Origin: Naegleria gruberi | Lineage: Eukaryota | DNA: 64,000 nucleotides | Direction: 5' to 3' (one strand) | NCBI GenBank assembly: GCA_000004985.1 | Contig: GG738871.1 | Shown here: piece after piece, positions 23,297-54,748 of the stretch | How the letters are laid out: the number at the start of each line of letters is the position of its first letter | How positions within the stretch are numbered: position 1 is the first letter of the stretch | Translations under genes and position numbers: made by a program | The notes under the pieces: generated by a model | What the model saw: the letters and a program-made list of their open reading frames with translations, nothing else | Told to the model about the DNA's origin: nothing | Databases searched by the model: none

Positions 23297-25153
23297 TTAA
23301 GACCAAGTTTCAACCTGATACCTTTTAGCAAGATCTAATTGTTTCAAATATTCTTCTGCTTCTTGGTTTGTCATTCCACCATGGATTAGAACAGATTTGA
23401 CTGCTTTTTGAACAGATTCTGGCATTTGTTTGGAATTACCGGCAACGTAAAAGTAAGCTCCCTTGTTTACAATTAGATCAAAGAGTAAATCTTTTTGTTC
23501 TCCAATACGATGTTGAACGTAGACTTTTGAATCTTGATCTCTTGAAAAAGCTGTTGACAATAAAAAGTTAAATTGTGTTTCACTTGAGTATTTTGTAAAT
23601 TCTTCTCCATATAAAAAGTCACTCTTTTCATTTCTGCATCCAAAGAATAGAATACTCTTTCCAATCTCTTCTGTACTTGTTATTGATAAATTGGATATTT
23701 TCAAATAACGATCTTGAATGAAACTTCTAAATGGTGCAACACCAGTTCCAGGTCCAACCATAATAATTGGAGTGGAGAGTGATTTTGGTAAAGTCATTGT
23801 ACCCTTATTGATCCATACTGGTACAAATACATCACCTTGTGTTCCAATATCAGTTGAAGAAAGCCATGATGTAAAAACTCCATTTCTAACTCTCTTAAAT
23901 GGTGTGGTAAAGTTTACAATAGCAATAGTGACATGAATTTGATGAGGACACATTGATTGAGAAGAGGATATGGAATAATATCTTGGTTTGATTTGTGGTA
24001 TTAAATCTAAAATGTACTCAAGAGTTGGTTTTGAACCAGGAAAATCATCAAAAACTTCGACATATGTTCTTTTCTCTTTGTGATTATATCTGTACATATC
24101 ACCTGTTCCTTCTGCAGATCCAAAATATTCTAATCTTTCCCTCTCTTCACCAGTTGTAAAATGGCTTAACAATTCGAATAAATATCTTCTTGGTGTTCCT
24201 TGAATATCTAAGTATTTTTCGAAAAGGTTGAATAAAGTAATTACACTATTGCCAAATGGCATATCAGGAGCATCTGGATCAATTTTTTCTACTCTTATCA
24301 ATTGATTTCCATCTAAGGATAATCTCTTGAGTAAATGTTGGACTTGATTAATTGTGTTTCTTGGTAAAACTGCAAGAACATCTCCTGGTTGATATGTGAG
24401 AGCTGTTTGATGATTTTCTCCTAAATTTTCAAAAACAACATGTCTAACATCTTGCCAGTGATTTTCAGATGTCATTTTCTTATTTTCTATCATTTTAGCC
24501 ATGAATGGATTCTCTTTTGAGTAAGGACTTGTGCTGCTGGCAGATTTGAAAATGTATGAGTTTTTAAGGGAGTTATCTGATTCATCACACTTGATAATTC
24601 TATATCTTGGTTCTGGAATAATATGAGGTGATATAACTTCAACACCAACAGGTAGAGGATAAATACTCATAACCTTATCCCACAATCCTCTCATCCATCC
24701 AACCAATGCACCGTCAATTCCATTAGCATGTTGGTCATCAGCCAATCCTCTAGCATGGAATTCTTGAGCACCTAATTGTAATAATCTTCTATGAAGTTTC
24801 TTGGCAACAAAATTGAATTTTGAATATCCAGAATCTCCCAATCCAAATACAGAAAATTTGACACTACTTAAACTATCTGCTGCCAAACTCTTTCTTCTGA
24901 GAAAATTCCAAAACTTCTTCATATTATCAGGCTCATCACCTTGTCCAGTTGTTGAAACTACGAAAATCAAAATTGGTTCCGATGTTAAATTTTCAATATT
25001 ATAATCATCCAATGCAGATAATTTAACAGATAGATATCTTCTCTTTGCTTCTCTTTGTATTCTTTCAGCCACCTCCTGAGCACAACCGCTTTGTGATCCA
25101 TAGAGAACACAGATTTTGCGAGAGGAGGTTTCTACCGTTTGTTGTGTAAGCAT
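23297..25153 (-). CDS. NDOR1: NADPH-dependent diflavin oxidoreductase (NDOR1/Tah18 family).
   Basis: Flavodoxin-like N-terminus (YGSQSG..A..V), KFNFVAKKLHRRLLQLG identical to the human NDOR1 segment, and a C-terminal FAD/NADPH-binding module (GPGTGVAPFR...YVQH). Confidence 0.9.
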   Translation of the reverse strand: MLTQQTVETSSRKICVLYGSQSGCAQEVAERIQREAKRRYLSVKLSALDDYNIENLTSEPILIFVVSTTGQGDEPDNMKKFWNFLRRKSLAADSLSSVKFSVFGLGDSGYSKFNFVAKKLHRRLLQLGAQEFHARGLADDQHANGIDGALVGWMRGLWDKVMSIYPLPVGVEVISPHIIPEPRYRIIKCDESDNSLKNSYIFKSASSTSPYSKENPFMAKMIENKKMTSENHWQDVRHVVFENLGENHQTALTYQPGDVLAVLPRNTINQVQHLLKRLSLDGNQLIRVEKIDPDAPDMPFGNSVITLFNLFEKYLDIQGTPRRYLFELLSHFTTGEERERLEYFGSAEGTGDMYRYNHKEKRTYVEVFDDFPGSKPTLEYILDLIPQIKPRYYSISSSQSMCPHQIHVTIAIVNFTTPFKRVRNGVFTSWLSSTDIGTQGDVFVPVWINKGTMTLPKSLSTPIIMVGPGTGVAPFRSFIQDRYLKISNLSITSTEEIGKSILFFGCRNEKSDFLYGEEFTKYSSETQFNFLLSTAFSRDQDSKVYVQHRIGEQKDLLFDLIVNKGAYFYVAGNSKQMPESVQKAVKSVLIHGGMTNQEAEEYLKQLDLAKRYQVETWS

Positions 25154-25365: not shown

Positions 25366-26004
25366 ATGACCATCATTTCAATCTTGGCAGTTCTAGCATT
25401 ATTTATTTATTTATATAAGGCTTTCTTTACATCGTGGAATAGAGCTGAAATGCCAAGCCATTCAACTGATTCTGACTTGGATCAGCATTCACAATTTTGG
25501 GAGAGAAGAATTGAGGAAGCATTAAATAACTTTTCATCTTATAGGGATTCAAAAATTGCTAAAAGATCATCAGAAAAAGTATTTAAAGAATTAGGAGAAG
25601 CTTGGGGAGAGTATGATCGTTCTCAGTTTTTAAAAAACAAAGCAATGATAATGTCAAAACAAGCAAAATTAAAAGTTCTATACAAAGAGAAGAAGGAAAA
25701 TGAGAAGAAAAAAGAAGGCCTCGTCATTATTAATGCGAGATATGGAGTTTTTGATAAGAAGCATAGAGCTATTGTCGATGTTACTACTCCATTACAATGT
25801 TTTGTGAACGATGCTTCATCTACAATTTCTTTCAAGAAAGGTCCATTCGAATCCTTGCCAGGCTTTGGAAACGTCACAGAAGGGATGTCATTTCCCTTAG
25901 GTGCGAACTTGAAGAAAGAATTACAAGTAATTTATCGAACGAACGGATCTCTTAGAATGAAAACGTTTATTGAGGAGGAAGGAAATGAAGTAGAATTGCC
26001 CTAA
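25366..26004 (+). CDS. N-terminally membrane-anchored hypothetical protein.
   Basis: N-terminal TM ISILAVLALFIYLY and a beta-rich C-terminal domain. No confident family. Confidence 0.4.
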   Translation: MTIISILAVLALFIYLYKAFFTSWNRAEMPSHSTDSDLDQHSQFWERRIEEALNNFSSYRDSKIAKRSSEKVFKELGEAWGEYDRSQFLKNKAMIMSKQAKLKVLYKEKKENEKKKEGLVIINARYGVFDKKHRAIVDVTTPLQCFVNDASSTISFKKGPFESLPGFGNVTEGMSFPLGANLKKELQVIYRTNGSLRMKTFIEEEGNEVELP

Positions 26005-43432: not shown

Positions 43433-44015
43433 TTATTGGTTATTATTGGCTACATTTCCTCCATTTTGAACTGCCAACATATTGATGTAGTTAATGTAAT
43501 TGATTTTTCCTGTATTTTCTGGGTCAACATTAGCAAGCAATTCGGTTGCTTCCTGTAGAGTGATTGGGTTGTCTCCATAAGTTGTCAGAGCATGTTCCAA
43601 AGTTTTGGTTCTTACTACACCATAAGGGCAATCCTCGGTTTCAAAAGTTTTAAATGCATTAATATATTGATCAACTGTGTATTGTGATTGAACACTTCTC
43701 GACATGACAGCAACAAATTCCTCAAAATCAATAGCTCCTGAATTATCAGCATCACTATCAACATAATAAATAAAATAATAATAAGGAAACCTACGCTTCC
43801 TTCATCATTTCCTGAATTTCTTCCTCCGAAGGCTTCAATCCCAATGTTCTCATTAATGTACCTAATTCTTCCTGTTCGATTGATCCACCTCCATCTCTAT
43901 CGACAAGTTGAAAAATTTCTCTATATCTTCTTACATCTTCGTCCGAAACTTGATGACCAAGCACCGTTGATTCAGCTTTTGAAGTTGGTGCAATGTAGCT
44001 TTGTTTTTTCTTCAT
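43433..44015 (-). CDS. Calmodulin-like EF-hand protein. complement(join(43433..43754,43795..44015)).
   Basis: EF-hand loops DRDGGGSIEQEE and DADNSGAIDFEEF are joined across a 40-nt GTAGGT intron. An E2F-like site lies about 32 bp upstream of the ATG at 44015. Confidence 0.7.
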
Positions 44016-44141: not shown

Positions 44142-45809
44142 TTACTTGAAGAGCTTTTCGAAGGTTTCGAAACCACCAGCAAGATTCTTAACATTTTCCA
44201 AACCATTTTCGTTCAAAATTCTTTGGGCCATATATCCTCTCATACCAATTTTACAATATGTTACAATAGTCTTATCCTTTGGAAGTTCAGAAATCTTTTC
44301 TCTCAATTGTTCAATTGGGATATGGATAGCACCTTCAAAGTGACCAGATTGGAATTCTCTTGGAGTTCTAACGTCAACCAAAGCATATTGATCTCTGTTA
44401 GCCAAAACTTCTGGAATGTGAACCATTCTTTGTTCACCTCGCAAGAGACCACTAGCAATGAAGCCAATCATGTTGACTGGATCCTTAGCAGAACCATATT
44501 GTGGTGAGTAGGCAAGTTCTGATTCTTCCAAATCAAAGACAGTCATACCACCTTGAATAGCCATGGCGATAGCATTAATTCTATTGGCAATACCATTGTG
44601 TTCACCAACAATTTGAGCACCCAAAATCTTACCATAATTTTCCTTAGAAGTGTCGAAAATCAATTTGAGAATCATTCTCTTAGCACCTGGATAATAACCA
44701 GCATGGTCATTGACAGGAGTGTAAACCTTTTCATAAGTTGTGTATCCAACTCTTTGGAGACTCTTTTCACTGGCACCAGTACCAGCAATAGTATAGTTGA
44801 AACCACCCATAATACTTGTACCTTGGGCACCTCTGAATGAATCTGGAGTCTTACCAAACATATGGTTGACTGCAATTCTTCCTTGTCTGTTAGCAATACC
44901 TGCCAATGGAATTTGAGTCCTATTCTTCAAAACGAAATCTTCAATTTCAGTGTTGTCACCACAAGCATAAATATCAGGATCAGAAGTTTGACAGTTTTCA
45001 TTAATTACAATACCACCTCTTGGACCAACCTTCAAACCAGATTCGACAGCCAATTTGTTTTCTGGCTTAACACCAACAGATAAAAGGACGAAATCAGCAT
45101 TAACAACCTTTCCACTTTCAAGATGAACATTAACAGTTCCATTTTCACCTTCTCCGAATTTAACACACTTTTCTTTCAATAATAAATTAACACCACTAGC
45201 CTTATAATCTTCCATCAATGGTTGAACCATTTCCTTATCCATTGGTGGCATAATTTGATCCAATAATTCAATAATGCTGACATTGACACCAGCATGAGTG
45301 ATAGCTTCAGCAACTTCACATCCAATGAAACCACCTCCGATGATAACACCCTTCTTTCCTGGAACAATGTGTTGCTTAATCTTGTCCATATCTTCCAATG
45401 AACGTAAAATGTGAATAAGTGGATTATTAATACCTTCCCATGGTGGAATAATTGGTTCAGCACCAGTTGAAAGAACTAGCTTATCATAATTTTCGGAATA
45501 TTCAGATTCCTTAGCCTTGCAAATAACTTGCTTGTTGGCTCTATCGATTTTGATGACTTCAGTTTCAACTCTGACATCAATGTTGTATCTTTTTTTTAAA
45601 GTATCAACTCCGGTAACAATCAAACTGTCTCTGGAAGCAATTTGACCACCAAGAAAATATGGCATACCACAGTTAGCAAATGAAGGATTCTTTCCCTTTT
45701 CGAACAAGACAATAGAAACCTTTTCGCAAATTCTTCTAAGTCTAGTGGCAGCAGAAGCACCTCCAGCGACACCACCAACAACTACAACTTTGTGAATCAA
45801 TGATGACAT
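44142..45809 (-). CDS. Bacterial-type CoA-disulfide reductase / NAD(P)H persulfide reductase with a fused C-terminal rhodanese domain (CoADR-RHD). Intronless.
   Basis: N-terminal FAD fold VVVVGGVAGG. Redox Cys in SFANCGMPY, as in CoADR SFANCALPY. A second NAD(P)-binding GxGxxG. C-terminal rhodanese with active-site loop YCKIGMRG. Length (555 aa) and domain order match prokaryotic CoADR-RHD proteins. Confidence 0.85.
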   Translation of the reverse strand: MSSLIHKVVVVGGVAGGASAATRLRRICEKVSIVLFEKGKNPSFANCGMPYFLGGQIASRDSLIVTGVDTLKKRYNIDVRVETEVIKIDRANKQVICKAKESEYSENYDKLVLSTGAEPIIPPWEGINNPLIHILRSLEDMDKIKQHIVPGKKGVIIGGGFIGCEVAEAITHAGVNVSIIELLDQIMPPMDKEMVQPLMEDYKASGVNLLLKEKCVKFGEGENGTVNVHLESGKVVNADFVLLSVGVKPENKLAVESGLKVGPRGGIVINENCQTSDPDIYACGDNTEIEDFVLKNRTQIPLAGIANRQGRIAVNHMFGKTPDSFRGAQGTSIMGGFNYTIAGTGASEKSLQRVGYTTYEKVYTPVNDHAGYYPGAKRMILKLIFDTSKENYGKILGAQIVGEHNGIANRINAIAMAIQGGMTVFDLEESELAYSPQYGSAKDPVNMIGFIASGLLRGEQRMVHIPEVLANRDQYALVDVRTPREFQSGHFEGAIHIPIEQLREKISELPKDKTIVTYCKIGMRGYMAQRILNENGLENVKNLAGGFETFEKLFK

Positions 45810-46128
45810 TTTGAGCTATTTTGTTTGTATAATTTTTGGGTAGAGTTGTATGATGCTTGTTGGCTATTTATTCAAACCATGACGAGGCCACTTGGAGAAC
45901 TAAAAAGGTGAAATTAGTGTCGGCGAAAAATATTGGGGCCGAAATGTTGAACGTAATGATGGGAGAGAAGGCACAATTGCCTGGTTTCTCCATTACTCAA
46001 AAGACACCTCAAGACAAGGATGGAAATTACATGTATCTTGAGTTGTCTGGATAATAAAATGACAAACATTTTTTTAATTGAAAAAACCACAATAAATTAA
46101 GCATCACATGGAGGGAAAGAGCAAGACA

Positions 46129-46285
46129 CTCTTACCTTGCATGAATAGTTAGATTTTTGTTACGTTAATCACTCCTGGGTACTACTCTCGAATATCATCT
46201 TTAATGATACAAGACACGGACTTGGGATAATAATTTGGAATGCTCCTACGGCTGTATGTGACCGAAATCGGATACAGTGATTCAT
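46129..46285 (+). ncRNA. Candidate spliceosomal snRNA (U1-like).
   Basis: In a roughly 550-bp stretch with no convincing ORF: ACTCTTACCTTGC resembles the U1 5' end AUACUUACCUG, AATCACTCC resembles U1 loop I (GAUCACGAAGG), ATAATTTGGAA is Sm-site-like (cf. human AUAAUUUGUGG), and there is a terminal hairpin CTGTATGTGACCGAAATCGGATACAG followed by T-runs. Speculative. Confidence 0.25.
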
Positions 46286-46370
46286 ATGCGTCCCAAATCT
46301 TTCTGGTTTTTCTTTTGGTTCTGTTGTAAAAGATTTAACTGTTTGAGTTTTGGATTCTAAAGTTTTAATT

Positions 46371-47686
46371 TTATCCATTTAAATCATATTTACAACATGG
46401 ACAAGTGTGGTTTTCCTCTAACCACTTGTCAATACAGTCTCTGTGAAAAATGTGTAAGCAAGGTAATCTCCTTAACTGCTCTCCATTCTGATATTCTTCC
46501 ATGCAAAATGTACAATTATTATCATCAAAATTATGTTGATTATTGTTAAATATTGTTATTGGAAGATTAGTCAATAAATCCTTATTGACACCAATTTTGA
46601 TATTAGCCTCATCCAATCTTAATAACTCCTCATAAGACTCCTCTCCTGTAAAGTTTTGAACACTTGAGCTAAGGGGATTAGCAGTACGAATATTTGATGC
46701 GAAGGAAGGAGCACTATAGTTTCCTCCAAGATTATTAGAAATTAATTCATCAAAGTTTGTAACTCTAGATTGATAGCTAGCAAATTCTTCTTGTTGCAAT
46801 CTTCTGGCTAAGATTTCATCCTCAGAAAGGTTATGTTGTGTAGACGCTGATGCTCGAGAATTATTGGATGAGGAAGATGCTTCTGATGAGCTACTACTAG
46901 TCGTAGTAGTAGATCTTGGAAGAAGTAGTCTCGATTGTGCAGTCTTGGACTTTGAAGCTATTGAGGGTCTCAGTGAGGGATTTCTAACAGGCTTAATTTC
47001 AGAAACTCTCTGAGTGGTCGATGTTGTTGACCCAACCTCTATTGCTCTTTTTACTGCTGATGTTGATGATGTTGGGGTAGCAGATTTTGTTGATGATGAC
47101 GAGGTGTTAGTTTTTGTTAATATAGAGGAAGAGTGTGGAATTCTTGTTGGAGTTAGAGTAGATGGTGGTTTGTATAATGATGGTTGAACTGTGGCAATAG
47201 TTGGTGGTGAATCTTTGTTTTTTCCTATTATTGCAAGATCATCATTTCCAGAGTTTAAATGTACTGCTGATCCACTTGGAGATTTGTCCTTTGCTCGTAA
47301 TTGTCTTTTCAGAGCATCATTACTAGCCTCTAATTGTTTAATCAATTCTTTAGCTCGCCCTAATTCATCTTCCAAATATTTGATCTTTTTATCCTTTTCT
47401 TGTGTTTCCCTGCAGAATTTTATAATAAATTATTACTAATAATTACTAGTACATACACCTCAAAACCACTGATTTTAATGGCTGCCTCCTCTAAAGCTAA
47501 CTCCAAGGCATAAGAGTTGGTGTTCGGATTTCCAAAGTCGTGGAAGGTATTTTGCATTTTTATTTTTGTTGGTTTGCAATTTTCGTTGTTGAGCGGTAAA
47601 TTTTGGCGGCAAACAATAGTTTCCTCAATCAACACCACTTTCTTTGGTAATGAGGATGATCTTTTGGTGTTGTTAATCTTTTTCAT
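46371..47686 (-). CDS. RING-H2 E3 ubiquitin ligase with an N-terminal helical region. About complement(join(46371..47409,47467..47686)).
   Basis: C-terminal RING-H2 CTFCMEEY...LPCLHIFHRDCIDKWL...CPCC. The N-terminal exon (MKKINNTK...LALEEAAIKIS) joins via a 57-nt intron. The donor choice GTTTTG is uncertain. Confidence 0.6.
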
Positions 47687-49830: not shown

Positions 49831-51067
49831 ATGAGCGTAAAAACCAAGGCTTCTCTGCCTTCACAAGAATCATCGAATTCTTCCTCTCAAAAATTTCTCA
49901 TCATCTCTGGTTTATTGTTGGGATTTTCGATTGTTTTTCGCTTTGTTAATAGACAATTGGATTCCGAAACGAATCAATCCTTCTTCGGAGATATTATTAA
50001 TGTTTTCTCCTCCTTTTTATTTACAGTTTTATTGATTATGTTTTCTCTCTGTATATTAATGTGCTCTATATTATTCTTGTTACTTTTCCGTAAAGGAAAA
50101 CCAACACATATTCAATCATCAAATGCTGGTATTGATATTTCTAGTAAAGTAATTGTTAGTGAGAAGGCAATTAATGATATCAATGACGAAAGTGTATTTT
50201 TCGTTAGAGAACAAGAAAGTGATGACGGAGATTGCAAATGGTTGAACATTATTCTCAATAGAGTTTTACAACAATATTTCTATAAGAATGCTTCTAAAAT
50301 CAAAAAACAAATTTTACAAAAAGTTTCAGAGGAAATGAAATTACCAGATTTTGTTGGAGATTTACAAATTAAAGATTTGAATTTTGGATCAAAATCACCA
50401 TATTTTAAGACCATTTCTGCAAAGGAAGATAGAAATGGATTGCAAGTTGATATTGCTGTAGTTTATGATGATCCAAAAACAAAGATTCACCTCGGAACTG
50501 AAATTTGGATTAATTATCCAGTTAAGAGATTTGCCTCATTCCCAATTCAATTTGCCATTGAAAATATTTTCCTTGATGCTAAGGTATGTTAAATTTAGGA
50601 ATATGATTCAGATCTTACCTTGTGCTAAATAGATGAGAGTAATTTTATCACCAGATTTCAAATTGCTCAAGTTCTGTTTCCTCAAACAACCAAACTTTGA
50701 TTTGATCTTTTCTAATGAATTTGGACATCATTCTTCACTTCAAAACTTGCCAATCTTGACTGACATTATTAATAGACAAATTTACCTCTTATTGAGTGAA
50801 ACATTGGTAGCTCCTAACTTTATTGAAATACCAATCCCAGAACCAAGTGAAAAAAAGACTAAGAAGAGTGAACAAGAAGATGAAGCTGATGTTCAAGCTG
50901 ATAATGGAGAATACTCTAGTGATGATTTAGAAAGTAATAATGACGATGAATTATCTTCAAGAGGAAGTGATGATGAAGATACAATTGAAGAGGATCAATC
51001 AAGACAAAGAATAACAAATAGAAAGACTAAACGTTCTACTACTAGGCCAACATCCAACAAGAAGTAA
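49831..51067 (+). CDS. TM-anchored SMP-domain lipid-transfer protein (Nvj2/TEX2-like). join(49831..50583,50633..51067).
   Basis: N-terminal TM, then an SMP-like block CKWLNIILNRVLQQYF...LPDFVGDLQIKDLNFGSKSPYF...LQVDIAVVY. The 49-nt intron is GTATGT...GTGCTAAATAG. Acidic C-terminal tail. Confidence 0.5.
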
Positions 51068-52544: not shown

Positions 52545-53189
52545 TTAAACAAGGGATTTTACTTTTTCAAAATAGGGAGAAATACTCCAAGATTGAGAAT
52601 AGAAAGCCAGAGTGGTGTTGCTGAGAGAAGTACTTCCTTGTGAATCGTCTTTCTTCTTTGATTGATTTTCATTCAAAAATTCCTTTCGGTCTGTTGTTGT
52701 CATTCGTTTGCATTCTGAAAGTATGAGTTCTTTCATGGTGTAATCCTTTTGTAACAATTCTATTATTGATTGAAGATACAGATTTTGTTTCTCAGTTGTG
52801 CAGGTTGACAGTAAAGTAATCAATTCCTGTAAATATCCATTCATTGTGACATGTATTAAATTATTCAATCTGGTAACAAGATTAAGAATTTCCGAATATA
52901 CTTTTCTGGTCACATTCTGTTTTAAAACATCTCCTATTACCATTGGACATTGTTGAAATACTCCCCAGTAAGGACTCTCCATATAGTCTTCTTCAATTAA
53001 TGATTTTTCCAGACCCGATAAAATATCATTTCCATCCAAAATCGTTTCTCCCCATTTTTGAATTATTAATTTAACTTTTGGTAGTATCAACCCGAGTGGA
53101 TTTAAACTTGATGTATTGTTATTCTTACTATTTACATATTGTTCCGATTGTTTGTGTTGTTGCTGATTATTGTTGGCTTTTAAACTCAT
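52545..53189 (-). CDS. Hypothetical protein.
   Basis: ORF beginning with an ATG that overlaps the stop of the upstream gene (ATGA). The N-terminus is N/Q-rich, followed by a helical domain. No family. Confidence 0.35.
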   Translation of the reverse strand: MSLKANNNQQQHKQSEQYVNSKNNNTSSLNPLGLILPKVKLIIQKWGETILDGNDILSGLEKSLIEEDYMESPYWGVFQQCPMVIGDVLKQNVTRKVYSEILNLVTRLNNLIHVTMNGYLQELITLLSTCTTEKQNLYLQSIIELLQKDYTMKELILSECKRMTTTDRKEFLNENQSKKKDDSQGSTSLSNTTLAFYSQSWSISPYFEKVKSLV

Positions 53190-53776
53190 TTTTTCTTTTC
53201 TTTCAAAAACTTTTTTGTCTTTTCATCTTCTCTTTTACTTCTTTCTAAATATTCTTTCATGAGATCTTCATCCATGGATGATGATTTTGTGGAGTTGTTA
53301 GAGGATGATTTCTTCTTTTCTGATGATTTTTGAGTGGCTTGATCTACTACTTTGGATTGACTTGGTGTTATAGGAGTATTGGTAATAATATTATTTTGAG
53401 AATTTACCACTTTGTGAAATAATGATTTTGAGTCATAGTTCAATACATCTTTAAAGGTGGTAATTTTAGAGTTGTTAATCAATGATTCTTCAGTTTTCTT
53501 CTTTTCAATATTTAAATTTGAAGGTGAAGTAGTGGTAGGATCCTTCCGAGAGTGATCAATCACCTTAACTTGTTCAATTGTTGAATTTGATTTTACTTTT
53601 TTAAATTGTTCATAATTTTCTTCCGATTGTTCCTTCTTTCTCTTTCGTTCTTGTTCTTTTTGTTTTTCATTTTCAATAGATTTAATCTTGTTTACTTTTT
53701 CTCTGTTTTTTTCTGAAGAGATGTGCCACGATTTTTTAGAGAGCAAATCAGACATTTTTTTATTATTTAAATTCAA
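53186..53776 (-). CDS. CWC25/CIR-N-terminal-domain splicing-factor-like protein.
   Basis: N-terminus MSDLLSKKSWHISSEKNREKV matches the Cwc25/CIR N-terminal motif (KKSWHP...N.EKVW). K/E/S-rich tail. Confidence 0.45.
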   Translation of the reverse strand: MNLNNKKMSDLLSKKSWHISSEKNREKVNKIKSIENEKQKEQERKRKKEQSEENYEQFKKVKSNSTIEQVKVIDHSRKDPTTTSPSNLNIEKKKTEESLINNSKITTFKDVLNYDSKSLFHKVVNSQNNIITNTPITPSQSKVVDQATQKSSEKKKSSSNNSTKSSSMDEDLMKEYLERSKREDEKTKKFLKEKKK

Positions 53777-53807
53777 TAAATATTACAATTTCCTTAATTT
53801 ACAATAC

Positions 53808-54748
53808 TTAATTCAATTTGATATTGTTACTTTCCTTTTCATAGACAGCATCTTCATCAGATCCTCTCAAAATTAAACGATCATCACTATCTGGAATGTC
53901 AACAATTAAAGAGTGGAATGTGAAACGATTTCTAATAATATTTAAAATTCCACTCTTTCTAGAAGCATCACAAGAAATCATGGCAGTCTTTTTGTTTGGA
54001 TCTTGAAGTTGGAAAATGAGTTGAACTCTTTTTGGTTTCCAGAATTGAAGCTTTCTAATAAGTGGAACATCGTGAGCATTATTAAAATCTGGATAAGTGT
54101 ATGAGTAAGCTCTGAATTTTCCAGGAGTGAGTGGAGTGAGCATATTATCTCTGACACTCTTATTGGCTAAAACCTTTTTAACAGCAGCTTTATAAACAGC
54201 TGATGGACTAATACTGAATGAAACAACTGCCAAATAACTAAGTCCACATGAAATTAAACCAGTGAAGAAACCAGTGTAAAATGAAACTGTAGCAACATTC
54301 TTAAATGTGATAGAACTCAACCAATCAGTAATTTCCCAAACTATTCAACTATTTAATATTAAAATCCAATATACATACCAATCCACAAAACACCAAATAT
54401 TGCTGTTGAAATGATGGCATATCTTACAAAGTACATTTTCCAAAATTTAACAAGAAGTGGAATGTTAATATCTGGTCTATCTTCATCCATAATACGTTCC
54501 TTATCGTTGAAAACTTCAACAGGGACAATTTCCTTTTCCAAATCCCTTTCTTCTTCATAAATAAATAATTTTTCATCCTTCTTTTGTGGAGTTTTATTTT
54601 CTTGTTTTACTTGATTATTCTTTGAATGGAATGAAGCCACAATAAAAGATCTGTTATTAATATGTACAGATGTAATTTTTGTTGTTGGTGATGAAAAGAG
54701 TGATGGCTTGGCTGTTTTATGGGCCAAGGAAATTACACGTTTGAACAT
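53808..54748 (-). CDS. TIM21: Mitochondrial import inner-membrane translocase subunit TIM21. complement(join(53808..54340,54379..54748)).
   Basis: TM segment then an IMS domain with SPSAVYKAAV (cf. yeast SPTAIYNRAV), ...LILRGS. The 38-nt GTATGT intron is placed at phase 1. Confidence 0.65.

What the first reader, a model, noticed from the sequence alone, without database searches (positions are those of the whole stretch)
44142..45809. Prokaryote-type CoA-disulfide/persulfide reductase fused to rhodanese, embedded in a eukaryotic gene neighbourhood: candidate horizontal gene transfer
The 555-aa product has the diagnostic layout of bacterial CoADR-RHD / NAD(P)H persulfide reductases, as found in Firmicutes, Bacteroidetes and Shewanella. 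It has an FAD fold, a single redox Cys in SFANCGMPY, an NAD(P) site and a C-terminal rhodanese with active-site loop YCKIGMRG. This architecture is rare in eukaryotes. The gene is intronless while most neighbours carry 40-60 nt introns. It nevertheless has host-like AT-rich codon usage and an A-rich start context. It sits between a calmodulin-like gene and a RING ligase gene with no sign of contamination, which suggests an old, ameliorated acquisition. The function would be sulfide or CoA-persulfide handling. The same window encodes TIM21, a sideroflexin and a Mic12-like protein, so the host has bona fide mitochondria, which makes a bacterial sulfur-detox enzyme physiologically interesting.
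Basis: partly seen in the sequence, partly recalled or inferred. Interest (0 to 1): 0.75.

Follow-up and report, generated by a model that had tools for sequence, protein, structure and literature searches.

The report
Bacterial persulfide reductase gene in Naegleria
The amoeba Naegleria gruberi carries a fully domesticated bacterial-type sulfur-detoxifying enzyme gene (a CoA-persulfide reductase fused to a rhodanese domain), probably acquired long ago from Planctomycetes-like bacteria; this is a solid but fairly ordinary case of gene transfer, and its counterpart in the brain-eating N. fowleri is switched up during infection.

Summary
Window 44142-45809 (-) is an intact 555-aa ORF, identical to Naegleria gruberi XP_002676667.1 ("predicted protein").

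**What it is.** It aligns end to end with solved CoADR-RHD, Npsr and CoAPR enzymes (E 1e-146; AF2 model TM 0.90-0.91). Both catalytic cysteines are present: Cys47 in SFANCG and Cys519 in the rhodanese loop.

**The HGT reading is supported and sharpened.**
- Orthologs exist only in N. fowleri, N. lovaniensis, Willaertia magna and two environmental eukaryote-like contigs (72-85% identity). Identity then drops to about 53% for bacteria.
- In bootstrapped NJ trees the eukaryote clade (200/200) nests inside a Planctomycetota-dominated clade (186-189/200). The donor is therefore not Firmicutes or Shewanella.

**Contamination is excluded.**
- Sec1-RING-CoADR-RHD-EF-hand synteny holds in three Naegleria assemblies (plus MMM1 in N. 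gruberi and N. fowleri).
- N. fowleri and N. lovaniensis carry a GT-AG intron at the same codon.
- GC3 is 0.27, matching the neighbours; Planctomycetota homologs have 0.67-0.82.
- dN/dS is 0.06-0.18.
- The N. fowleri protein is detected by proteomics and is upregulated in brain-isolated amoebae (PMC11964265).

**Localisation and function.** No targeting signal is present, so the enzyme is probably cytosolic. The likely function is NADH-driven reduction of persulfide or polysulfide sulfur through a bound CoA.

**Verdict.** This is a new eukaryotic member of a known enzyme family. Interest is moderate.

The parts
44142..45809 (-). Complete intronless CDS (555 aa plus stop) of the CoADR-RHD / persulfide-reductase-type flavoprotein. 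It is N. gruberi XP_002676667.1 / NAEGRDRAFT_68286 / UniProt D2VH60.
   Evidence: ORF list; exact database match; full-length alignment to PDB 3NTA, 3ICR and 8A56; AF2 model with pLDDT 82 and TM 0.90-0.91 to the same structures.
44880..45791 (-). FAD/NAD(P)H-binding Pyr_redox_2 region (residues 7-310). It includes the FAD GxGxxG motif GGVAGG (45759-45776) and the NAD(P)H GxGxxG motif GGGFIG (45321-45338). The latter is followed by NVSIIE, whose Glu181 (invariant in alignment A1) fits NADH preference.
   Evidence: Pfam; motif translation; invariant columns in A1. The NADH preference is an inference from the acidic residue at the end of strand beta2 and from the NADH-specific homologs described in PMC7969121.
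45657..45683 (-). Redox-active motif SFANCGMPY. Cys47 (45669-45671) is equivalent to Cys43 of S. loihica Npsr and Cys42 of E. faecalis CoAPR.
   Evidence: Alignment to 3NTA; invariant S43-F44-A45-N46-C47-G48 in A1; role of this Cys from PMC9405070.
44499..44798 (-). Pyridine nucleotide-disulfide oxidoreductase dimerisation domain (residues 338-437).
   Evidence: Pfam PF02852, E 7e-14.
44157..44399 (-). C-terminal rhodanese domain (residues 471-551). Its active-site loop is YCKIGMRG (44235-44258), with Cys519 at 44253-44255.
   Evidence: Pfam PF00581, E 1e-19. Cys519 aligns with the residue that is Ser in the SlNpsr C531S structures 3NTD and 3NT6.
43433..44015 (-). Downstream neighbour: calmodulin/centrin-like EF-hand gene with two exons and a 40-nt GT..AG intron at 43755-43794. 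The same neighbour is conserved in N. fowleri and N. lovaniensis.
   Evidence: Pfam; sequence; spliced translation of 180 aa; synteny.
46371..47375 (-). Upstream neighbour: RING-H2 finger gene. It is part of a collinear block: Sec1 - RING - (TPR) - CoADR-RHD - EF-hand in N. fowleri and N. lovaniensis, with MMM1 next to Sec1 in N. gruberi and N. fowleri.
   Evidence: Pfam; tblastx collinearity of L001 1-10519 with window 51376-43458; gene tables.

Best explanation
**What it is**

The gene is a bona fide nuclear gene of Naegleria gruberi. It encodes a homodimeric FAD flavoprotein of the CoADR-RHD / Npsr / CoAPR type. An ancestor of the Naegleria + Willaertia lineage (Vahlkampfiidae, Heterolobosea) acquired it from a bacterium, most probably a member of the Planctomycetota.

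Since the transfer the gene has taken on host codon usage. It has been kept under purifying selection. In the N. fowleri / N. lovaniensis branch it has gained a spliceosomal intron.

**Proposed mechanism (inferred by homology to solved and assayed enzymes)**
1. The surface Cys519 of the rhodanese domain accepts a sulfane sulfur from a low-molecular-weight or protein persulfide, or from a polysulfide.
2. The pantetheine arm of a tightly bound CoA picks up this sulfur as CoA-SSH and swings it to Cys47, next to the flavin of the other protomer.
3. Cys47 attacks, releasing H2S and forming a Cys47-S-S-CoA mixed disulfide.
4. FADH2 reduces the mixed disulfide, and the flavin is recharged by NADH.

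**Likely role**

The protein has no N-terminal presequence and no PTS1, so it most likely works in the cytosol. There it would limit reactive sulfur species when the amoeba grazes on bacteria, lives in microoxic or sulfidic sediment, or, in N. fowleri, feeds on host tissue.

**Shown versus inferred**
- Shown: sequence, fold, catalytic residues, phylogenetic position, synteny, intron, selection, and protein expression in N. fowleri.
- Inferred: substrate, cofactor preference, localisation and physiological role.
For: **Identity and fold**
- Pfam architecture.
- Matches to 3NTA, 3ICR and 8A56 at E 1e-146 to 1e-131 over residues 6-551.
- AF2 model with pLDDT 82 and Foldseek TM 0.88-0.91 to BaCoADR-RHD, SlNpsr, EfCoAPR and AfNpsr.
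- Cys47 and Cys519 align to the catalytic Cys43 and Cys531 and are invariant in 18 homologs.

**Mechanism of the family**
- PMC9405070 and PMC7969121.

**HGT**
- Identity falls from 72-85% (Naegleria spp., Willaertia, two eukaryote-like environmental contigs) to no more than 54% for bacteria.
- The best labelled bacterial hits are Planctomycetota.
- In NJ trees the eukaryote clade is recovered 200/200. It nests in a Planctomycetota-dominated clade 186/200. With gamma distance and a thinned taxon set the figure is 189/200.

**Integration in the host genome**
- Collinear Sec1-RING-(TPR)-gene-EF-hand block in three Naegleria assemblies, with MMM1 next to Sec1 in N. gruberi and N. fowleri. The neighbours in Willaertia are also eukaryotic.
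- Phase-0 GT-AG introns at the same codon in N. fowleri (105 nt) and N. lovaniensis (114 nt).
- GC3 of 0.270 against 0.261 +/- 0.036 for the neighbours, and against 0.67-0.82 in Planctomycetota homologs.

**Function retained**
- dN/dS of 0.06-0.18.
- The N. fowleri ortholog A0A6A5BTY6 is detected by proteomics. [quoted passage not shown]

**Donor-side context**
- Planctomycetota homologs sit next to ArsR-type regulators or a rhodanese+YgaP membrane protein, which fits a role in sulfur stress or sulfur trafficking.
Against: - No enzymology exists for any eukaryotic member. Substrate and NADH preference are extrapolated.
- The trees are distance-based (NJ) only. Taxa were chosen from best hits.
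- Identity to Planctomycetota (mean 50%) is only modestly higher than to other phyla (mean 46%).
- The exact sister group (Pirellulales-like) has only 43% bootstrap as a fixed bipartition.
- The bacterial family itself is probably exchanged among phyla: a Bdellovibrionota MAG falls inside the Planctomycetota clade, and some Planctomycetota fall outside it.
- Other eukaryotic lineages were not searched exhaustively.
- Cytosolic localisation rests only on the absence of recognisable signals.
Confidence: 0.85

Rival explanations
1. The segment is bacterial contamination, or a chimeric mis-join, in the N. gruberi assembly.
For: The protein's nearest non-heterolobosean relatives are all bacterial. 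The gene is intronless in N. gruberi.
Against: - The same gene lies in the same gene order in independent assemblies of N. fowleri and N. lovaniensis. In Willaertia it lies between eukaryotic genes.
- Two species have spliceosomal introns in the gene.
- GC3 of 0.27 matches the host and is far from the 0.67-0.82 of bacterial homologs.
- The protein is detected in N. fowleri proteomes.
Confidence: 0.01
2. The gene is an ancient eukaryotic gene, from LECA or the mitochondrial endosymbiont. It was inherited vertically in Heterolobosea and lost nearly everywhere else. Alternatively, it moved from a eukaryote to bacteria.
For: Eukaryotic sampling could not be exhaustive with these tools. The gene has been in the lineage long enough to be fully ameliorated.
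Against: - The six eukaryotic sequences form one tight clade nested within a broad bacterial radiation, specifically inside a Planctomycetota-dominated subclade.
- Among the 120 best hits of a 5.8-billion-protein search that includes EukProt, the only eukaryote-derived sequences are Naegleria, Willaertia and two close environmental relatives.
- The nearest relatives are not Alphaproteobacteria.
Confidence: 0.03
3. The gene was acquired by HGT, but the enzyme is a true CoA-disulfide reductase that keeps a CoA thiol pool reduced, as the HHpred label in PMC11964265 implies. A related option is that it acts mainly as an NADH oxidase or peroxidase for oxygen or peroxide defence. In either case it would not be a persulfide/polysulfide reductase.
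For: - The best NCBIfam models are the CoA-disulfide reductase equivalogs.
- CoADR, NADH oxidase and NADH peroxidase share the fold and the single Cys.
- AfNpsr shows NADH oxidase activity.
Against: - Scores fall below the curated cut-offs of all three CoADR equivalogs: 422.8 against 578.8, 337.5 against 458, and 305.9 against 394.
- The rhodanese domain and its Cys are conserved under purifying selection.
- Characterised rhodanese-fused members reduce persulfides and polysulfides and show no detectable CoA-disulfide activity (PMC7969121).
- In EfCoAPR both cysteines are required, and the rhodanese Cys is persulfidated in vivo (PMC9405070).
- In N. fowleri the protein is co-upregulated with a rhodanese-related protein and sulfite oxidase.
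Confidence: 0.12

Closest known systems
Shewanella loihica PV-4 NADH-dependent persulfide reductase (Npsr; PDB 3NTA, 3NTD, 3NT6, 4OCG)
   Same: Full-length alignment over residues 6-551 (E 1.8e-146). TM 0.89-0.90. Same SFANCG redox Cys and same rhodanese Cys position. Acidic residue after the NAD-binding strand.
   Different: - About 42-48% identity.
- The Naegleria protein lacks the roughly 15-residue insertions of SlNpsr around residues 210-235.
- Eukaryotic nuclear gene with host codon usage.
- The proposed role in Shewanella is sulfur respiration, which is unlikely in an aerobic or microaerophilic amoeba.
Enterococcus faecalis CoA-persulfide reductase (CoAPR; PDB 8A56) and Bacillus anthracis CoADR-RHD (PDB 3ICR, 3ICS, 3ICT)
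   Same: Same two-domain architecture and dimeric fold (E 1e-131 to 1e-143; TM 0.88-0.91). Both catalytic cysteines are present. The 'swinging pantothenate arm' mechanism is expected to apply. A role in reactive-sulfur-species detoxification is the best physiological analogy.
   Different: - 41-44% identity.
- The bacterial genes sit in CstR-regulated sulfide-stress operons. The Naegleria gene is monocistronic among unrelated eukaryotic genes, so its regulation must be different.
Planctomycetota CoADR-RHD homologs (e.g. Roseiconus nitratireducens, Stieleria magnilauensis, Bythopirellula, Anatilimnocola floriformis, Gemmataceae and Planctomycetaceae MAGs)
   Same: Closest sequences outside Heterolobosea (51-54% identity). 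The heterolobosean clade nests among them. They share local features such as (E/N/Q)PSFANCGMPY with the Pirellulales-like subgroup.
   Different: - GC3 of 0.67-0.82 against 0.27.
- Linked to ArsR-type regulators or a rhodanese-YgaP gene.
- The heterolobosean proteins carry clade-specific indels, such as TSKENYG, GEHNG and the C-terminal ENV.
- None of these bacterial proteins is biochemically characterised.
Canonical CoA-disulfide reductase (S. aureus Cdr, PDB 1YQZ; NCBIfam TIGR03385, NF007123, NF010037)
   Same: Same flavoprotein core and single-Cys chemistry (E 3e-67, residues 7-452).
   Different: - It has no rhodanese domain.
- The Naegleria protein scores below the curated cut-offs of all three equivalog models.
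- Only about 32% identity in the structural alignment.

Membership tests
CoADR-RHD / Npsr / CoAPR (rhodanese-fused single-Cys pyridine nucleotide-disulfide oxidoreductases) | Two-dinucleotide-binding flavoprotein core with an FAD GxGxxG motif, an NAD(P)H GxGxxG motif and a dimerisation domain | tested here: met
   Pfam PF07992, PF00070 and PF02852. GGVAGG and GGGFIG motifs.
CoADR-RHD / Npsr / CoAPR (rhodanese-fused single-Cys pyridine nucleotide-disulfide oxidoreductases) | Single redox-active Cys in the N-terminal SFxNCG motif (SlNpsr Cys43 / EfCoAPR Cys42) | tested here: met
   SFANC47G aligns with sfanCg of 3NTA. Invariant in A1.
CoADR-RHD / Npsr / CoAPR (rhodanese-fused single-Cys pyridine nucleotide-disulfide oxidoreductases) | C-terminal rhodanese domain of about 100 aa with a catalytic Cys (SlNpsr Cys531 / EfCoAPR Cys508) | tested here: met
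   PF00581 over residues 471-551. Cys519 aligns with the Ser of the C531S mutant chains.
CoADR-RHD / Npsr / CoAPR (rhodanese-fused single-Cys pyridine nucleotide-disulfide oxidoreductases) | Full-length structural equivalence to solved members | tested here: met
   AF2 model with pLDDT 82.2 and pTM 0.78. Foldseek TM 0.88-0.91 over about 555 columns to 3ICT, 3NTA, 8A56 and 6PFZ. This is a monomer model; the dimer and ligands were not modelled.
CoADR-RHD / Npsr / CoAPR (rhodanese-fused single-Cys pyridine nucleotide-disulfide oxidoreductases) | Tightly bound CoA forming a mixed disulfide with the redox Cys | not testable with these tools
   Needs purified protein (mass spectrometry or a crystal structure).
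CoADR-RHD / Npsr / CoAPR (rhodanese-fused single-Cys pyridine nucleotide-disulfide oxidoreductases) | NAD(P)H-dependent persulfide/polysulfide reductase activity requiring both cysteines | not testable with these tools
   Needs enzymology. Only indirect support is available: purifying selection and co-upregulation with sulfur-metabolism proteins in N. fowleri.
Canonical CoA-disulfide reductase (NCBIfam equivalogs TIGR03385, NF007123, NF010037) | Whole-protein score at or above the curated equivalog cut-off | tested here: not met
   422.8 against 578.8, 337.5 against 458, and 305.9 against 394 bits.
Bacterium-to-eukaryote horizontal gene transfer | Eukaryotic sequences monophyletic and nested within a bacterial clade with support | tested here: met
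   NJ trees with 200 bootstraps: 200/200 for monophyly, and 186/200 and 189/200 for nesting in a Planctomycetota-dominated clade.
Bacterium-to-eukaryote horizontal gene transfer | Physical integration in the host genome: linkage to eukaryotic genes in independent assemblies, spliceosomal introns and host codon usage | tested here: met
   Synteny. Introns. GC3 and CAI-like measures.
Bacterium-to-eukaryote horizontal gene transfer | Restricted (patchy) distribution among eukaryotes | tested here: inconclusive
   Among the 120 best hits, only Naegleria, Willaertia and two environmental eukaryote-like contigs appear. Weaker or independently acquired eukaryotic homologs could not be screened by taxon.

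The most novel reading that the evidence does not exclude
The enzyme would be the first eukaryotic CoA-persulfide reductase. It would form the core of a laterally acquired, cytosolic module for reactive-sulfur-species detoxification in Naegleria. A possible partner is a bacterial-type membrane rhodanese: N. fowleri A0A6A5CE35 ('slr1261-like') resembles the rhodanese-YgaP gene adjacent to the Planctomycetota homolog. Sulfite oxidase would act downstream. N. fowleri would induce this module to survive while feeding on brain tissue. Because the enzyme is absent from humans, it would be a selective drug target.
Probability: 0.2. Interest if true: 0.65.

Novelty: new member of a known kind. Interest (0 to 1): 0.4.

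Why it matters
- It adds a well-documented case of bacterium-to-protist gene transfer, with donor phylum, timing, amelioration and a later intron gain all described. Post-transfer intron gain at a defined site is useful for studying intron origin.
- It extends the CoADR-RHD / Npsr / CoAPR family into eukaryotes. Sulfane-sulfur handling there is normally attributed to SQR, persulfide dioxygenase (ETHE1), TST and thioredoxin/glutathione systems.
- The N. fowleri ortholog is upregulated in brain-isolated amoebae (PMC11964265), and humans lack the enzyme. A correct functional assignment (persulfide reductase rather than 'CoA-disulfide reductase') could guide work on N. fowleri physiology and drug targets.
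- None of this overturns current views. HGT into bacterivorous amoebae is common.

Tried and rejected
- **Contamination or mis-join:** rejected by synteny, introns, codon usage and proteomics.
these are more distant than Planctomycetota.
- **Mitochondrial or peroxisomal targeting:** the N-terminus starts 6 residues before the Rossmann strand, with an in-frame stop 3 codons upstream. The C-terminal -LFK, -LYK or -SNL is not a conserved PTS1.
- **P0008 (52% identity, unlabelled) as a possible deeper eukaryotic homolog:** rejected. Its contig has 58% GC and bacterial-looking flanks.
- **Prior description of this gene:** the literature was searched by accession, locus tag and keywords. The only hit is the HHpred label for the N. 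fowleri ortholog in PMC11964265. HGT surveys in PMC8296547, PMC9928731 and PMC6892926 do not mention it. The 2010 N. gruberi genome paper, with its list of HGT candidates, is not held.
- **Co-transferred partner genes (rhodanese-YgaP, ArsR):** a search of the eukaryotic DNA held found nothing beyond the RHD domain itself. The N. fowleri protein A0A6A5CE35 could not be fetched by accession.
- **RNA genes:** the tRNA and Rfam scans of the window found nothing.
- **TPR gene:** the TPR gene present between RING and this gene in N. fowleri and N. lovaniensis has no remnant in the N. gruberi window.
Full report
**1. Observation**

The ORF exists exactly as described: window 44142..45809 on the minus strand, 555 aa, ATG start. 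An in-frame TAG lies three codons upstream, and the start context is A-rich, caaaATG. Pfam finds these domains:
- Pyr_redox_2, residues 7-310, E 5e-65.
- Pyr_redox, residues 154-231.
- Pyr_redox_dim, residues 338-437.
- A C-terminal Rhodanese domain, residues 471-551, E 1e-19.

- SFANCGMPY lies at 45657-45683, with Cys47.
- YCKIGMRG lies at 44235-44258, with Cys519.

The flanking genes are as stated. Downstream is an EF-hand gene that splices across a 40-nt GT..AG intron (43755-43794) into a 180-aa calmodulin/centrin-like protein. Upstream is a RING-H2 gene at 46371-47375.

The rest of the window is thoroughly eukaryotic. It encodes sideroflexin, a formin, AP-4 epsilon, Sec1, MMM1, ZNF598-like, HAUS5 and a CBP80-like MIF4G protein. 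No tRNA gene and no Rfam family was found.

**2. Identity of host and gene**

The protein is an exact match to Naegleria gruberi XP_002676667.1 / EFC43923.1 / NAEGRDRAFT_68286 / UniProt D2VH60. It is annotated only as 'predicted protein' and lies on a 417-kb scaffold. The window is therefore N. gruberi nuclear DNA. The gene is already in public databases, but uncharacterised.

**3. Which enzyme it is**

Against solved structures, the best sequence matches cover the whole protein:
- S. loihica NADH-dependent persulfide reductase, Npsr (3NTA), E 1.8e-146, residues 6-551.
- B. anthracis CoADR-RHD (3ICR), E 3.7e-143.
- E. faecalis CoA-persulfide reductase (8A56), E 3.1e-131.
- A. fulgidus Npsr (6PFZ), E 1e-98.

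Rhodanese-less CoADRs, NADH peroxidases and NADH oxidases follow, covering only residues 7-452.

An AlphaFold2 model (pLDDT 82.2, pTM 0.78) superposes on the rhodanese-fused enzymes with TM 0.88-0.91 over about 555 columns. The rhodanese-less relatives cover only about 0.72 of the query.

Cys47 aligns with Npsr Cys43. Cys519 aligns precisely with the residue that is Ser in the Npsr C531S mutant chains. Both cysteines are invariant in an 18-sequence alignment, together with the SFANCG, HAGYYPG and ELxYxPQ(Y/F)G blocks.

The NCBIfam CoA-disulfide reductase equivalogs are the top hits but all fall below their curated cut-offs: 422.8 against 578.8, 337.5 against 458, and 305.9 against 394 bits. 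I therefore do not file the protein as a canonical CoADR. It belongs to the rhodanese-fused CoADR-RHD / Npsr / CoAPR group.

**4. Origin**

A search of about 5.8 billion proteins gave a sharp discontinuity:

| Hit | Identity to the N. gruberi protein |
|---|---|
| N. fowleri | 85% |
| N. lovaniensis | same 90% cluster as N. fowleri |
| Environmental sequence P0003 | 82% |
| Environmental sequence P0004 | 74% |
| Willaertia magna | 72% |
| Bacterial proteins | 50-54% |

- The contig carrying P0004 is AT-rich (gene GC3 0.28, flanks 28% GC).
- The contig carrying P0003 has a saposin-like neighbour. Both contigs look eukaryotic.
- The next hit, P0008, lies on a 58% GC bacterial contig.

Named bacterial top hits are Planctomycetota: Planctomycetaceae, Gemmataceae, Anatilimnocola and Roseiconus. 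A scan of one genome per GTDB species likewise returned Gemmataceae, Planctomycetaceae, Stieleria and Bythopirellula as the best loci. These ranked ahead of Verrucomicrobiota, Bacillota, Acidobacteriota and others.

I built two bootstrapped NJ trees.
- **First tree** (140 sequences, 546 columns, Kimura distance, 200 bootstraps):
  - The six eukaryotic sequences are monophyletic in 200/200 replicates.
  - They fall in 186/200 inside a clade whose labelled members are all Planctomycetota, except one Bdellovibrionota MAG.
  - The nearest neighbours include a Pirellulales-like group (Roseiconus, Stieleria, Bythopirellula) in 180/200. That exact bipartition has only 86/200.
- **Second tree** (gamma distance, stricter trimming, thinned unlabelled taxa): 200/200 for monophyly and 189/200 for nesting.

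Mean identity of the N. gruberi protein is 50% to Planctomycetota and 46% to other phyla. I therefore regard the donor phylum as probable rather than certain.

**5. The gene is not a contaminant**

- The N. fowleri locus is collinear with window 51376-43458 over about 10.5 kb: MMM1, Sec1, RING, [TPR], CoADR-RHD, EF-hand.
- The N. lovaniensis locus, which begins at Sec1, shows the same order from Sec1 onward.
- In Willaertia the gene lies between APG6 and an Arf-like GTPase gene.
- The N. fowleri gene carries a 105-nt phase-0 GTAAGT...TTAG intron between codons PPM|DKEM.
- N. lovaniensis has a 114-nt GTATGT...ATAG intron at the identical site. N. gruberi, Willaertia and the two environmental genes lack an intron there.
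- With an intronless bacterial ancestor, the parsimonious reading is an intron gain in the N. fowleri / N. lovaniensis lineage after the transfer.
- Codon usage is fully host-like. GC3 is 0.270 against 0.261 +/- 0.036 (z = 0.26) for 28 other long ORFs.
- A CAI-like index against the window's own codon usage ranks the gene 26th of 29, near the top.
- The Planctomycetota homologs have GC3 of 0.67-0.82.
- Pairwise dN/dS among the five available coding sequences is 0.06-0.18. dS is near saturation, so the ratios are approximate.

The acquisition therefore predates the Naegleria-Willaertia divergence, and the gene has been kept functional.

**6. Expression and literature**

The N. fowleri ortholog P0002 is UniProt A0A6A5BTY6. 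A 2025 proteomics study (PMC11964265) lists it as 'coenzyme A disulfide reductase', based on an HHpred match to 3ICS at 2.6e-61. [quoted passage not shown] A rhodanese-related protein (A0A6A5CE35) and sulfite oxidase are in the same set. The family assignment is therefore not new for N. fowleri, and protein-level expression is established in a congener.

I found no paper that mentions the N. gruberi gene or discusses a bacterial origin. The 2010 genome paper, with its HGT list, is not in the held library.

**7. Mechanism**

For the rhodanese-fused enzymes, the literature supports the following cycle (PMC9405070 and PMC7969121):
1. The surface rhodanese Cys is persulfidated.
2. The pantetheine arm of a tightly bound CoA collects the sulfane sulfur.
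3. The arm delivers it as CoA-SSH to the Cys next to the flavin of the opposite protomer.
4. H2S is released and a Cys-S-S-CoA mixed disulfide forms.
5. FADH2 reduces the disulfide, and NAD(P)H recharges the flavin.

Characterised Npsr enzymes reduce persulfides and polysulfides but not CoA disulfide.

All sequence and fold determinants of this cycle are present in the Naegleria protein. Glu181, at the end of the NAD-domain beta2 strand (NVSIIE), is invariant. I infer that this points to NADH rather than NADPH.

The N-terminus has no room for a presequence, and the C-termini of the orthologs are not a conserved PTS1. I therefore infer a cytosolic location.

On the donor side, the Planctomycetota genes are often preceded by an ArsR-type HTH regulator (L006, L009, L011, L014). 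In one case (L003) the upstream gene encodes a rhodanese+YgaP-TM protein. This fits a role in sulfur stress or sulfur trafficking.

I propose that in Naegleria the enzyme limits cytosolic reactive sulfur species during bacterivory, life in sulfidic or microoxic habitats, or tissue feeding. This physiological role is inference.

**8. Rivals**

- **Contamination or mis-assembly** is effectively excluded (section 5).
- **Vertical descent with massive loss, or eukaryote-to-bacterium transfer,** conflicts with the nested topology and the narrow eukaryotic distribution among the best hits. Eukaryotic sampling could not be made exhaustive with these tools.
- **A true CoA-disulfide reductase, or an NADH oxidase,** remains a minority functional possibility that only enzymology can settle.

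**9. Novelty and score**

This is a new, eukaryotic and laterally acquired member of a known enzyme family. It sits in a lineage where bacterial gene acquisitions are common. The gene and its N. fowleri ortholog are already in databases, and the ortholog has been labelled by HHpred.

What is added here:
- the probable Planctomycetota donor;
- the timing of the transfer;
- the post-transfer intron gain;
- the correction from 'CoA-disulfide reductase' towards persulfide reductase;
- the predicted cytosolic location.

Interest is moderate, at 0.4. It would rise if the enzyme proves important for N. fowleri survival in the host, or if a bacterial membrane rhodanese partner was co-acquired. That second lead could not be tested here.

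Noticed in passing
L001:8568-8672 (N. fowleri) and L086:6583-6696 (N. lovaniensis); equivalent site in the window is between codons 190 and 191, at about 45239/45240: Both species carry phase-0 GT-AG introns (105 nt and 114 nt) at the identical PPM|DKEM codon boundary of the transferred gene. The intron is absent from N. gruberi, Willaertia and two environmental orthologs. This looks like a clean example of intron gain after HGT.
   Followed up: yes
L001:5712-7655 and L086:3812-5746, against window 45810-46370: A TPR-repeat gene of about 630 aa lies between the RING gene and the CoADR-RHD gene in N. fowleri and N. lovaniensis. It has no tblastn counterpart anywhere in the N. gruberi window, where the interval is only 560 bp. 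This is a lineage-specific gene insertion or deletion inside an otherwise collinear block.
   Followed up: partly
L006:425-745, L009:458-847, L011:552-884, L014:529-861, L003:209-793: In Planctomycetota, the CoADR-RHD homolog is often immediately preceded by an ArsR-family HTH regulator. In a Gemmataceae MAG the upstream gene encodes a rhodanese + YgaP-like transmembrane protein. This suggests a persulfide-responsive operon in the putative donor lineage.
   Followed up: partly
N. fowleri protein A0A6A5CE35 (not in the window; supplement of PMC11964265): The rhodanese-related protein co-upregulated with the CoADR-RHD ortholog in brain-isolated N. fowleri is annotated as a membrane protein similar to cyanobacterial slr1261. 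It resembles the bacterial rhodanese-YgaP neighbour of the donor-side gene, so a second bacterial-type partner may exist. The sequence could not be fetched here.
   Followed up: no
L001:15659-17731 against window 52626-54096: Beyond the collinear block, N. fowleri sequence downstream of the EF-hand gene matches a window region on the other side of the block. This indicates a local rearrangement between the two Naegleria genomes.
   Followed up: no
Protein cluster of P0006 (N. fowleri FDP41_013776, 130 aa; CAG4708512.1, 491 aa): Truncated N. fowleri gene models of the same enzyme exist in other assemblies or contigs, including a 130-aa fragment on a separate 56.7-kb contig of the same assembly. 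They could be haplotigs, fragmentary models or a partial second copy.
   Followed up: no
window 23300-25153 (-), 25366-26001 (+), 49831-50589 (+): Other genes seen while surveying the window: a flavodoxin/FAD/NAD diflavin reductase (CPR-like), a DNAJC11-like C-terminal domain protein, and the ERMES component MMM1. All are typical eukaryotic genes, and none looks bacterial.
   Followed up: partly
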